This document shows positions 38,883-39,335 of a stretch of 64,000 nt of DNA, piece by piece; the first letter of the stretch is position 1, and every line of letters begins with the position of its first letter. Both the position numbers and the translations under genes were made by a program. This DNA comes from Escherichia coli (GTDB lineage: Bacteria > Pseudomonadota > Gammaproteobacteria > Enterobacterales > Enterobacteriaceae), in the NCBI RefSeq assembly GCF_001677475.2, contig NZ_CP015229.1. The stretch is one strand, 5' to 3'. The notes beneath the pieces are model-generated. The model searched no databases. It was given only the letters and a program-made list of their open reading frames with translations, and was not told the DNA's origin.

Positions 38883-38942
38883 CAGGCAGAATTGCCGGAG
38901 TAACAAAAAAGCGATAGATTACGCGCGGGTGCCTTTCGGCTG

Positions 38943-39206
38943 ATGGTCGGAGGGAATACCCGAAGGCCAGATGTGGAAAGGCCCCGGAAAACATCTCTGT
39001 TTAACCGAGGCCCTAACCGCATTACCTTGACAAGTGAAAGGTTAGCGCCTCTCCGGAAAAGGAGCAAGTGCTATGTCGCAAAAATCGCTTACAGCCATCA
39101 CGTTCTGCGTGACGGCAATCCTCATCATCTGGATGCTACACGGTTCGCTGTGCGAAATACGGATGAGCTTCTGGGGAGCGGAGTTTGCGGCGTTCTTACA
39201 GTGTAA
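38943..39206 (+). CDS. mok-like overlapping reading frame of a hok-family locus
   Basis: 87-codon ORF overlapping the hok-like ORF in another frame and ending 7 nt before its stop. Confidence 0.45.
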   Translation: MVGGNTRRPDVERPRKTSLFNRGPNRITLTSERLAPLRKRSKCYVAKIAYSHHVLRDGNPHHLDATRFAVRNTDELLGSGVCGVLTV

Positions 39207-39213
39207 GCAGTAA
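39073..39213 (+). CDS. hok: Hok/Gef-family type I toxin (46 aa)
   Basis: MSQKSLTAITFCVTAILIIWMLHGSLCEIRMSFWGAEFAAFLQCKQ: TM helix then SLCEIR and AAFL.CK motifs as in HokA/Gef; too small for the ORF track. Confidence 0.7.
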   Translation: MSQKSLTAITFCVTAILIIWMLHGSLCEIRMSFWGAEFAAFLQCKQ

Positions 39214-39301
39214 GGAAACCGCGACGGGGGAGCAATCCCCCGTCAATCGGTTGCCAGGGTAAGGTCGATAAGGCACCCTATCTCACAGACATGAACAACA
39301 A

Positions 39302-39335
39302 ACCCGCAACGTAAAAACTGCGGGTTTTCTTTTTG
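39302..39335 (+). terminator. intrinsic terminator ending the hok-like transcript
   Basis: cccgca-loop-tgcggg hairpin followed by ttttcttttt. Confidence 0.55.

What the first reader, a model, noticed from the sequence alone, without database searches (positions are those of the whole stretch)
38890..39335. hok/mok-type type I toxin-antitoxin locus carried next to attR
A 46-codon ORF encodes a Hok/Gef-like peptide (TM helix then SLCEIR and EFAAFLQCK). It is overlapped by a longer mok-like frame. The presumed 5' leader (gggtgccttt, about 38935) is complementary to a 3' element (aaggcaccc, about 39285), like the tac/fbi pairing of hok mRNAs, and the locus ends in an intrinsic terminator. A possible promoter is TTGCCG-N17-TAGATT at 38894-38922. 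The Sok-like antisense RNA should be on the minus strand around 38935-39030 but I could not place it precisely.
Basis: partly seen in the sequence, partly recalled or inferred. Interest (0 to 1): 0.65.

Follow-up and report, generated by a model that had tools for sequence, protein, structure and literature searches.

The report
Prophage hok/sok toxin–antitoxin locus, no mok
This is an ordinary, already catalogued Hok/Sok-type small-toxin/antisense-RNA module carried at the right end of a P2-like prophage in E. coli; its only unusual trait is that it and its relatives lack the 'mok' leader reading frame that the classic hok systems need.

Summary
A 46-codon ORF (39073-39213, +) encodes a Hok/Gef peptide (Pfam E=4.8e-7; PHROG 251 E=1.3e-22). 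It is identical to RefSeq WP_000078916.1 and to peptide 72_1621 of a 2026 preprint, which found 42 of 45 tested homologs toxic and does not list this one among the three exceptions.

An alignment of 18 related loci shows a conserved transcription unit of about 409 nt:
- weak promoter, TTGCCG 38892-38897 / TAGATT 38915-38920, with the start near 38927;
- 5' tac (38927-38941) pairing with 3' fbi (39263-39278), 99% paired with compensatory changes;
- alternative tac/ucb pairing;
- a hairpin after the ORF, and a terminator (39300-39335).

I place a Sok-like antisense RNA on the minus strand, from about 39031 to about 38973. Its promoter is positionally homologous to the R1 sok promoter. Its hairpin is 5-14 kcal/mol more stable on the minus strand in 18/18 loci.

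The 87-codon "mok-like" frame is not conserved: most relatives have stops and no start codon there.

The attR core (39479-39503, the ihfA terminator) lies 144 nt beyond the locus. The host is E. coli and the prophage is P88-like.

Verdict: already known kind and member, low interest. The mok-less regulation is a modest open point.

The parts
38892..38920 (+). hok promoter: -35 TTGCCG (38892-38897), 17-nt spacer, -10 TAGATT (38915-38920). Weak, 8/12 matches to consensus.
   Evidence: Read from the sequence. The -10 TAGATT/TAGAAT/TAGAGT and the distance to GGGTGCC are kept in 17/18 homologs while the spacer and the upstream DNA diverge. Below the threshold of the consensus scan. No transcript data.
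38927..39335 (+). Full-length hok mRNA (about 409 nt), from the predicted +1 (GGGUGCC) to the terminator T-run.
   Evidence: Position 1 of the Rfam RF01794 model aligns to 38927. The conserved block in 18 loci starts at GGGTGCC and ends after the terminator. MFE -170 kcal/mol, z = -7.2. The ends are inferred, not mapped.
38927..38941 (+). tac element: the 5' end, which pairs with fbi in the full-length RNA and with ucb in the 3'-trimmed RNA.
   Evidence: Alignment columns 19-20 covary with both partners.
38976..38985 (+). ucb-like box GAAAGGCCCC. It pairs with the GAGG box in the full-length fold and with tac in the truncated fold.
   Evidence: Inverted repeat I3. Truncated-RNA MFE. 95.5% of cells paired, with 2 compensatory pairs. 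In L023, C to U here is matched by G to A in the GAGG box.
39007..39010 (+). GAGG box, positional homolog of the R1 mok Shine-Dalgarno. Conserved here, but no start codon follows it.
   Evidence: Alignment with the R1-type leader. No conserved start codon within 5-15 nt. Pairs alternatively with ucb and with GCCUC 39047-39051.
38973..39031 (-). Predicted Sok-like antisense RNA, about 55-62 nt: a variable, single-stranded 5' tail of about 18 nt (39031-39014), a hairpin (about 39013-38978), and a U-rich 3' tail.
   Evidence: Minus-strand alignment. The hairpin is -18.5 to -27 kcal/mol on the minus strand against -12 to -16 on the plus strand in 18/18 loci, because G.U pairs on the minus strand are C.A mismatches on the plus strand. 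The ends are inferred.
39039..39067 (-). Sok-like promoter on the minus strand: -35 TTGCTC (39067-39062), 17-nt spacer, -10 TAACCT (39044-39039). The -35 overlaps the hok SD.
   Evidence: Positionally homologous to TTGCGC-N17-TATCCT in the R1-type locus L026. Three Salmonella copies have TATCCT. Primer and probe sequences in the hokW-sokW paper place the mutated sokW -10 on the same GAGGC-TAACC motif. Only 6/12 matches to consensus, so not listed by the scan.
39059..39064 (+). hok Shine-Dalgarno AAGGAG, 8 nt before the ATG. Sequestered by CUCC (39051-39054) and by the AGCGC/GUGCU stem (39044-39048 with 39068-39072).
   Evidence: P(unpaired) is 0.00 in the full-length fold.
39073..39213 (+). 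hok toxin gene, 46 aa (Hok cluster 72).
   Evidence: The peptide is identical to 72_1621, which was tested for toxicity.
39178..39193 (+). Downstream box inside the ORF (GCGGAGUUUGCGGCGU) that pairs with the hok start region, 39073-39088.
   Evidence: RNAalifold consensus. All 14 pairs are kept (two single-sequence mismatches); the 20 one-sided changes (C-G to U.G, U.G to U-A) preserve pairing.
39223..39244 (+). Stable hairpin just after the stop codon. Likely the 3' end-protecting stem of the processed (truncated) mRNA.
   Evidence: Inverted repeat I4. Compensatory changes in 5 pairs. Its role is inferred from the R1 paradigm (PMC9841398).
39263..39278 (+). fbi element, complementary to tac.
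39300..39335 (+). Intrinsic terminator of the hok mRNA.
   Evidence: Inverted repeat I5 followed by a T-run. Conserved with compensatory changes in homologs that sit in other genomic contexts.
39479..39503 (.). attR core (context, not part of the TA module): a 25-nt direct repeat of 2680-2704, lying within the ihfA terminator.
   Evidence: The reconstructed empty site matches 5118/5426 E. coli genomes (top hits 100% identical).
38622..38882 (+). ogr/Delta-like late activator gene of the P2-like prophage (context). It ends 10 nt before the hok -35.
   Evidence: The Ogr-hok order recurs in Salmonella prophages.

Best explanation
The region 38892-39335 is an intact hok/sok-family type I toxin-antitoxin module (Hok cluster 72). 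It is carried as a moron between ogr and the att site of a P88-like (P2-like) prophage, which is integrated in the ihfA terminator of E. coli.

Proposed mechanism, step by step:
1. A weak promoter makes a hok mRNA of about 409 nt. Its 5' end (tac) is clamped to a 3' element (fbi).
2. In this closed form the hok SD and AUG are buried. The SD sits in a local CUCC/GGAG plus AGCGC/GUGCU hairpin. The AUG pairs with a box inside the ORF.
3. By analogy with R1 hok, slow 3' trimming back to the hairpin after the ORF removes fbi.
4. tac then re-pairs with the ucb box, and the GAGG box shifts from ucb to GCCUC (39047-39051). This loosens the SD hairpin.
5. A short-lived antisense RNA of about 60 nt (Sok-like, minus strand, about 39031 to 38973) pairs with this leader. 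It is expected to trigger RNase III decay and/or push the leader back to the SD-closed form.
6. When the antisense RNA is lost, Hok is made. Hok is a single-pass inner-membrane peptide that kills or lyses the cell.

Unlike R1, hokW and the K-12 hok loci, there is no conserved mok leader ORF. Hok translation is therefore most likely controlled directly, not through translational coupling.

Shown here: the peptide family, the conserved RNA helices and their alternative partners, the absence of mok, and the promoter and hairpin signature of the antisense RNA.

Inferred: the transcript ends, 3' processing, the effect of Sok binding, and the biological role (prophage stabilisation, help with lysis as for hokW-sokW, or phage exclusion).
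For: Peptide:
- Pfam HOK_GEF E=4.8e-7 and PHROG 251 E=1.3e-22 over the full length.
- Conserved C-x-T, SLCE and E-x-AA motifs aligned with Hok R1, HokB-E, PndA and SrnB.
- Identical to RefSeq WP_000078916.1, annotated 'Hok/Gef family protein'.
- Identical to 72_1621 in Table S2 of bioRxiv 10.1101/2025.08.07.668861, which reports 42/45 tested homologs toxic and names three non-toxic exceptions, none of them from cluster 72.

RNA:
- The Rfam hok-leader model RF01794 aligns over its full length from 38927, E=8.5e-9. The same model hits R1-type loci in the same sense.
- The MFE closes the 5' and 3' ends, z = -7.2.
- RNAalifold on 18 loci finds tac/fbi de novo. 99.1% of cells are paired and 3 pairs are fully compensatory, against 33-54% for slid controls.
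- tac/ucb and GAGGC/GCCUC are 95.5% paired. The same tac columns covary with both fbi and ucb, and one GAGG column covaries with both ucb and GCCUC.
- Folding the RNA truncated at 39246-39262 switches to tac/ucb.

Antisense RNA:
- The promoter is in the same register as the R1 sok promoter.
- The hairpin is more stable on the minus strand in 18/18 loci.

mok:
- Absent in this cluster, while the same routine recovers it in R1-type loci.

Module behaviour:
- The unit from the promoter to the terminator is conserved in different genomic contexts.

Modelled SD and AUG accessibility:
- It rises in the truncated form and falls back when the Sok target is blocked, in about 12/18 loci. The effect is small.
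Against: - No transcript, processing or toxicity data exist for this locus in its native context.
- Both promoters are poor consensus matches (8/12 and 6/12) and were not listed by the scan.
- The Rfam score (48.4) is below the gathering score (59). The NCBIfam scores (34 and 21.6) are far below the curated cut-offs (89 and 73).
- The compensatory changes in tac/fbi separate two clades (6 vs 12 sequences) and may represent a single evolutionary event.
- The predicted opening of the SD in the truncated RNA is weak: P(unpaired) is at most 0.24, and the effect is absent in about a third of the homologs. The direct-control step therefore rests mainly on the absence of mok.
Confidence: 0.9

Rival explanations
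1. A canonical hok/mok/sok locus. The 87-codon frame (38943-39206), or a shorter version starting at TTG 39027 or ATT 39021, is a real mok whose translation is needed for hok translation.
For: The frame is open in the window and ends 7 nt before the hok stop, as R1 mok does. The GAGG box that serves as the mok SD in R1 is conserved at 39007-39010.
Against: In 13/19 related loci the frame is closed 10-58 nt upstream of the hok ATG with no conserved canonical start after the stop. This includes phage Chuche, whose Hok is identical, which has TAA at the position of the window's TTG. In the 97%-identical E. coli copy the frame stops at +80. No ATG/GTG/TTG lies 5-10 nt after GAGG in any of the 18 loci. 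ATG 38943 lies 16 nt from the 5' end, has no SD, and is missing in the Salmonella-type loci.
Confidence: 0.05
2. A decayed or silent relic: the peptide is toxic if forced, but the native locus no longer expresses it. Several K-12 hok loci are inactivated in this way.
For: The promoters are weak. The SD is almost fully sequestered even in the modelled truncated RNA. mok has been lost. Truncated copies do exist elsewhere, for example L014, which lacks the promoter and tac.
Against: Every RNA element is conserved with pair-preserving and compensatory changes across E. coli, Salmonella, Citrobacter and Klebsiella, although the peptide identity is only 59-100%. The ORF is intact in 292 complete E. 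coli genomes at this site. Weak hok promoters and sequestered SDs are the normal state in this family (PMC9841398).
Confidence: 0.07
3. Primarily a phage lysis-accessory or superinfection-exclusion gene rather than an addiction module. The mechanics are the same, but the biological role is to speed up host lysis on induction (as hokW-sokW does in Sp5) or to abort infection by other phages.
For: The locus sits in a prophage moron position directly downstream of the late activator gene ogr, with no terminator between them. hokW-sokW raises Sp5 release about twofold after mitomycin C (PMC8621323). hok genes are enriched about fourfold in prophages.
Against: No data exist for this cluster. PADLOC has no model matching the peptide. 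The preprint found no enrichment of hok near defence systems. This is a rival only about role and is compatible with the best explanation.
Confidence: 0.3

Closest known systems
Hok cluster 72, peptide 72_1621 (Escalera-Maurer et al., bioRxiv 10.1101/2025.08.07.668861); RefSeq WP_000078916.1
   Same: The 46-aa peptide is identical. It is listed in a high-abundance cluster and was cloned as LRP137 for the toxicity assay. The paper names only three non-toxic peptides, none from cluster 72.
   Different: The preprint analysed coding sequences only and explicitly left Mok, Sok and the mRNA structure unannotated. The RNA anatomy and the absence of mok described here are not in it.
hok/mok/sok of plasmid R1 (parB)
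   Same: The leader shows positional homology in tac, ucb, the GAGG box, the GAGGC...GCCUC stem, and the sok -35/-10 overlapping the hok SD region. It also has tac/fbi closure, a hairpin after the ORF and a terminator (paradigm as summarised in PMC9841398).
   Different: There is no mok ORF. The peptide is 46 rather than 52 aa and 28% identical. The leader scores 48 bits against 89 bits for an R1-type locus on RF01794. The context is a prophage rather than a plasmid.
hokW-sokW of Stx2 prophage Sp5 (Takada et al. 2021, PMC8621323)
   Same: A prophage-borne hok/sok module. The sok -10 lies on the same GAGGC-TAACC motif, judged from the primer and probe sequences. This system supplies experimental precedent that such a locus is a working type I TA and helps phage release.
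   Different: HokW is 51 aa. Its primers encode MKQQKAM...DYESEK, which places it in the HokD-like cluster 35, not cluster 72. Its probe contains GAGGCTCAATCCATG, so a mok start is present. The Stx-phage copy that resembles the window at 80.6% nt identity is a different, 46-aa locus.
HokA (NCBIfam NF007290), the closest curated model
   Same: Best NCBIfam hit. A HokA-like variant is 41% identical and shares the WM..DSLCE..ELAAFLAC pattern.
   Different: It scores 34 bits against a cut-off of 89, so it is not a HokA ortholog.
Type I systems without a leader ORF, e.g. tisB/istR-1 and zorO/orzO (from my own knowledge, not tested here)
   Same: The antisense RNA binds the 5' UTR well upstream of the toxin SD and acts through structure, a ribosome standby site, or RNase III, rather than by blocking a coupled leader ORF.
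   Different: No sequence relationship. Here the antisense RNA is cis-encoded, and the whole leader architecture is hok-like.

Membership tests
Hok/Gef toxin family (Pfam PF01848) | Profile match of a peptide of about 50 aa | tested here: met
   Pfam HOK_GEF i-E=4.8e-7, 29.7 bits, residues 7-44 on model positions 5-42 of 42. PHROG 251 E=1.3e-22. 67 homologs named Hok/Gef.
Hok/Gef toxin family (Pfam PF01848) | The seven residues conserved in more than 80% of Hok peptides (M1, C16, T18, L30, C31, E32, E41 of the published logo), with an N-terminal hydrophobic helix | tested here: met
   The window has M1, C12, T14, L26, C27, E28 and E37, aligned with Hok R1, HokB-E, PndA and SrnB. Residues 6-22 are hydrophobic (read from the sequence).
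Hok/Gef toxin family (Pfam PF01848) | Toxic when expressed | not testable with these tools
   From the literature: the identical peptide 72_1621 was in the tested set, and only 19_179, 60_1482 and 69_1540 were reported non-toxic. This is a preprint and the per-construct figure was not seen.
HokA equivalog / Hok subfamily (NCBIfam NF007290, NF007279) | Score at or above the curated cut-off | tested here: not met
   34 bits against 89, and 21.6 bits against 73. The peptide belongs to a separate cluster (72), not to HokA or to R1-type Hok.
hok/sok locus architecture (R1 paradigm) | Long-range tac-fbi pairing that closes the full-length mRNA | tested here: met
   MFE. De novo RNAalifold. 99.1% paired, 3 compensatory pairs, slid controls 33-54%. 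9-nt perfect inverted repeat.
hok/sok locus architecture (R1 paradigm) | Alternative tac-ucb pairing in the 3'-truncated mRNA (conformational switch) | tested here: met
   The truncated-RNA MFE forms tac/ucb. 95.5% paired, and tac columns 19-20 covary with both ucb and fbi. 11/18 homologs form it in the truncated MFE. 3' processing itself cannot be tested.
hok/sok locus architecture (R1 paradigm) | A mok leader ORF that starts in the Sok target region behind a GAGG SD and overlaps the hok start | tested here: not met
   The frame is closed with no conserved start codon in 13/19 loci, and no start follows GAGG in any of them. Positive control: ATG 8 nt after GAGG and a 70-codon ORF are recovered in R1-type loci L026 and L028.
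hok/sok locus architecture (R1 paradigm) | A cis-antisense Sok gene: a minus-strand promoter overlapping the hok SD region, a single-stranded 5' tail, and a terminator-like hairpin | tested here: met
   TTGCTC-N17-TAACCT is in the same register as TTGCGC-N17-TATCCT of L026. The hairpin is 5-14 kcal/mol more stable on the minus strand in 18/18 loci. This is a sequence signature only.
hok/sok locus architecture (R1 paradigm) | The antisense RNA is expressed and counteracts the toxin | not testable with these tools
   Needs a northern blot or dRNA-seq, and a promoter-down mutant. The precedent is hokW-sokW.
Rfam RF01794 ('sok', in fact the hok mRNA leader) | Score at or above the gathering threshold (59 bits) | tested here: not met
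   48.4 bits, E=8.5e-9, full model length 1-157. Other cluster-72 loci score 38-53 bits and an R1-type locus scores 88.9 bits. This is a divergent leader subfamily.
P2-like prophage moron at ogr-att (context) | Lies inside the prophage boundaries defined by the att direct repeats | tested here: met
   25-nt repeats at 2680-2704 and 39479-39503. The empty site matches 5118/5426 E. coli genomes (top hits 100% identical). The same ogr-hok-ihfA order occurs in 292 E. coli genomes and in Salmonella.

The most novel reading that the evidence does not exclude
Hok cluster 72, which includes this locus, is a natural mok-less branch of the hok/sok family. It keeps the full tac/fbi/ucb switch and the former mok SD (GAGG) but has lost the leader ORF. 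Hok translation would then be gated directly. In the processed mRNA, GAGGC pairs with GCCUC and loosens the anti-SD hairpin. Sok binding to GAGGC, or RNase III cleavage, restores SD sequestration. The old mok SD would have been re-used as an anti-anti-SD or as a ribosome standby element. I found no description of this, and the 2026 Hok survey explicitly left Mok unanalysed.
Probability: 0.45. Interest if true: 0.4.

Novelty: already known. Interest (0 to 1): 0.2.

Why it matters
As a finding it adds little. The gene is annotated as Hok/Gef in RefSeq, the phage copies are annotated (under the misleading name 'MokW-like'), and the exact peptide has been tested for toxicity.

It is useful for annotation. 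It fixes the prophage end (attR at 39479-39503). It gives the full RNA anatomy of a hok cluster that databases annotate only as a CDS. It also shows that the overlapping frame should not be called mok.

The one point of wider interest is that a whole, well-conserved hok cluster works without mok. This offers a natural test of how far the R1 translational-coupling model generalises, and of what the conserved GAGG box does when no ORF follows it.

Tried and rejected
- The consensus promoter/terminator scan found no promoter and listed the terminator only on the minus strand. I used conservation instead.
With the alignment it returned only 7 genome loci, so I added loci through the look-up of encoding contigs.
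- I looked for any conserved upstream ORF in all frames: ATG 38971 (19 codons, in the hok frame), GTG 38973, and GTG at -5. None is conserved. An N-terminal extension of hok is excluded by the conserved in-frame TAG at 39043.
- I considered whether the locus sits in the P2 defence hotspot of Rousset et al. It does not: that hotspot is next to cos, and the paper does not mention hok.
- PADLOC found no match for Hok or for the neighbouring esterase-like ORF.
- The hypothesis that the GAGGC/GCCUC stem and the CUCC/GGAG SD hairpin are strictly mutually exclusive was weakened. They share only one nucleotide (C39051). The competing element is rather AGCGC/GUGCU (39044-39048). Modelled SD opening is small.
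- Literature searches for a described mok-less hok found nothing specific.
- The SD-hairpin pair counts on alignment A3 are unreliable, because one group of sequences is shifted by one column.
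Full report
**What is there**

The 46-codon ORF at 39073-39213 (+) encodes MSQKSLTAITFCVTAILIIWMLHGSLCEIRMSFWGAEFAAFLQCKQ.

- It matches Pfam HOK_GEF (E=4.8e-7) and PHROG 251 over its full length (E=1.3e-22).
- It falls far below the curated NCBIfam cut-offs for HokA (34 vs 89 bits) and for the Hok subfamily (21.6 vs 73 bits).
- Aligned with Hok R1, HokB-E, PndA, SrnB and a HokA-like peptide, it keeps the C-x-T, SLCE and E-x-AA positions at 16-41% identity.

**Already known**

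- The peptide is identical to RefSeq WP_000078916.1, annotated 'Hok/Gef family protein' in E. coli NCTC9022, in the same ogr-hok-ihfA arrangement. It is also identical to a CDS of phage Chuche.
- 292 of 5426 complete E. coli genomes carry at least 80% of the 1-kb stretch.
- A database search found 67 relatives, all named Hok/Gef, in E. coli, Shigella, Salmonella and Klebsiella.
- The same peptide is entry 72_1621 (high-abundance cluster 72) in Table S2 of Escalera-Maurer et al., bioRxiv 10.1101/2025.08.07.668861. That paper reports 42 of 45 tested homologs toxic and names three non-toxic exceptions, none from cluster 72.
- It is not HokW. HokW is 51 aa, and its primers encode MKQQKAM...DYESEK, the HokD-like cluster 35.

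**Genomic context**

- A 25-nt direct repeat, AAAGAAAAAAGGCCGCAGAGCGGCC, lies at 2680-2704 and 39479-39503.
- Joining the left host flank, one core and the right host flank gives a sequence that matches contiguously in 5118 of 5426 E. coli genomes (top hits 100% identical), under btuC and ihfA.
- The window therefore holds a 36.8-kb prophage inserted in the ihfA terminator of E. coli. The attR core is 144 nt beyond the hok terminator.
- The best phage matches are P88-like (Xuanwuvirus) P2-like phages.
- ogr/Delta (38622-38882) ends 10 nt before the hok -35.
- The same gpD-Ogr-Hok-ihfA order occurs in Salmonella with a Hok only 61% identical. Ogr-hok also occurs at other Salmonella sites.

**RNA anatomy**

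I collected 18 non-identical loci of this cluster and aligned them.

- Conservation begins at the promoter hexamers and ends after the terminator. The flanks are unrelated, so the promoter-to-terminator unit is the module.
- The promoter is TTGCCG (38892-38897), N17, TAGATT (38915-38920). The -10 (TAGATT/TAGAAT/TAGAGT) is kept in 17/18 loci while the spacer diverges.
- The Rfam model RF01794 aligns over its full length from 38927 to 39086 (48.4 bits, E=8.5e-9, below the gathering score of 59).
- On an R1-type control locus the same model hits the hok-sense strand from +1 to the hok ATG at 88.9 bits. The family called 'sok' is therefore really the hok leader, and 38927 is the likely +1.

**tac/fbi and the switch**

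- The 409-nt RNA folds with its first 15 nt paired to 39263-39278 (MFE -170 kcal/mol, z = -7.2).
- The repeat finder lists GGGTGCCTT/AAGGCACCC as a perfect 9-nt inverted repeat.
- RNAalifold finds this helix de novo. 99.1% of cells are paired, against 33-54% when slid, and three pairs change on both sides. These changes separate two clades and may be a single event.
- The truncated RNA (ending at 39246-39262) refolds so that tac pairs with GAAAGGCCCC (38976-38985) and GAGGC (39007-39011) pairs with GCCUC (39047-39051).
- These helices are 95.5% paired. The same tac columns covary with fbi and with ucb. In L023 one GAGG position changes together with both of its alternative partners. That is the signature of a two-state RNA.
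- Other conserved helices: the hok start region (39073-39088) pairs with 39178-39193 inside the ORF; there is a hairpin after the ORF (39223-39244); and there is the terminator (39300-39335). The last two show compensatory changes.

**Antisense RNA**

On the minus strand, TTGCTC (39067-39062), N17, TAACCT (39044-39039) sits in the same register as TTGCGC-N17-TATCCT in the R1-type locus. Three Salmonella copies carry TATCCT.

Primers in the hokW-sokW paper put the mutated sokW -10 on the same GAGGC-TAACC motif.

Starting near G 39031, the RNA would have three parts:
- a variable 5' tail of about 18 nt, the least conserved stretch of the locus, which differs between tandem Salmonella copies;
- a hairpin;
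- a U-rich tail ending near 38973.

The hairpin is 5-14 kcal/mol more stable on the minus strand in all 18 loci, because G.U pairs there are C.A mismatches on the plus strand.

**mok**

- The 87-codon frame (38943-39206) is open in the window only by chance.
- In 13 of 19 loci it is closed 10-58 nt upstream of the hok ATG with no conserved canonical start after the stop (two loci carry an isolated GTG 28 nt upstream). Chuche has TAA where the window has TTG 39027. The 97%-identical E. coli copy ends the frame at +80.
- No start codon follows the conserved GAGG in any locus.
- The hok frame itself has a conserved TAG at 39043.
- The same routine recovers the ATG 8 nt after GAGG and the 70-codon mok in R1-type loci.
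- The preprint states that Mok was not analysed. Two literature searches found no description of a mok-less hok.

**Mechanism**

The best-supported reading is a hok/sok switch without translational coupling, as laid out in the best explanation.

Modelled accessibility of the hok SD is about 0.00 in the full-length RNA, 0.05-0.24 in the truncated RNA, and about 0.00 again when the Sok target is blocked, in about 12/18 loci. The direction fits but the effect is small, so this step is inference.

The biological role is open. Prophage stabilisation, lysis help as for hokW-sokW and phage exclusion are all possible.

**Verdict**

This is a known family and a known member, so interest is low.

Noticed in passing
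window 7822-7896 (+) and 7932-8019 (+): Rfam gathering-level hits to isrK (66.5 bits) and the C4 antisense RNA (83.2 bits). These are the P1/P7-type C4/ant immunity RNAs, here in the early region of a P2-like (P88-like) prophage.
   Followed up: no
window 39427-39579 (-): A hit to the Salmonella sRNA family STnc540 (42.8 bits, gathering score 38) spans the ihfA 3' end, the att core and the phage arm. In Salmonella locus L021 the same position scores 171.6 bits. The prophage integrates inside the region homologous to this ihfA-3'-end sRNA.
   Followed up: partly
window 37503-38261 (+): A 252-aa alpha/beta-hydrolase (esterase/lipase-like) ORF lies between the tail gene gpD and ogr. It is a second moron at the prophage's right end, with PHROG esterase/lipase hits and no PADLOC hit.
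   Followed up: partly
L011-L013 (Salmonella), hok at 701-841 and about 1191-1335: Two tandem cluster-72 hok loci lie next to a YafO toxin gene. Each has its own complete leader, and the predicted Sok 5' tails differ, which would avoid cross-talk between the copies.
   Followed up: partly
L029 (Atlantibacter hermannii plasmid pVNF293-1), 294-509: An R1-type hok locus in which the mok ATG is in frame with hok and is annotated as one 71-aa CDS. This looks like a mok-hok fusion caused by a 1-nt frame difference.
   Followed up: no
L014-L016 (Salmonella), upstream of hok at 701: A copy in which the promoter and the tac element are replaced by unrelated sequence while the rest of the leader and the ORF are kept. 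It is probably an inactivated locus.
   Followed up: no
L004, L005, L008 (contigs labelled Collinsella sp. MAG, Planococcaceae MAG, Xanthomonas pisi): Near-identical E. coli-type hok loci (72-100% peptide identity) appear on short contigs assigned to unrelated taxa. Contamination or mis-binning is the most likely cause.
   Followed up: no
Database naming (Rfam RF01794; PHROG 251): Rfam 'sok antitoxin' matches the hok-mRNA sense strand from +1 to the hok AUG, in an R1-type control as well. PHROG 251 is named 'MokW-like host killing' although it models the Hok peptide. Both names can mislead annotation.
   Followed up: yes
window 43420-43544 (-): The phenylalanine leader (pheST attenuator) is in its expected place upstream of pheS. 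This is ordinary host context.
   Followed up: no
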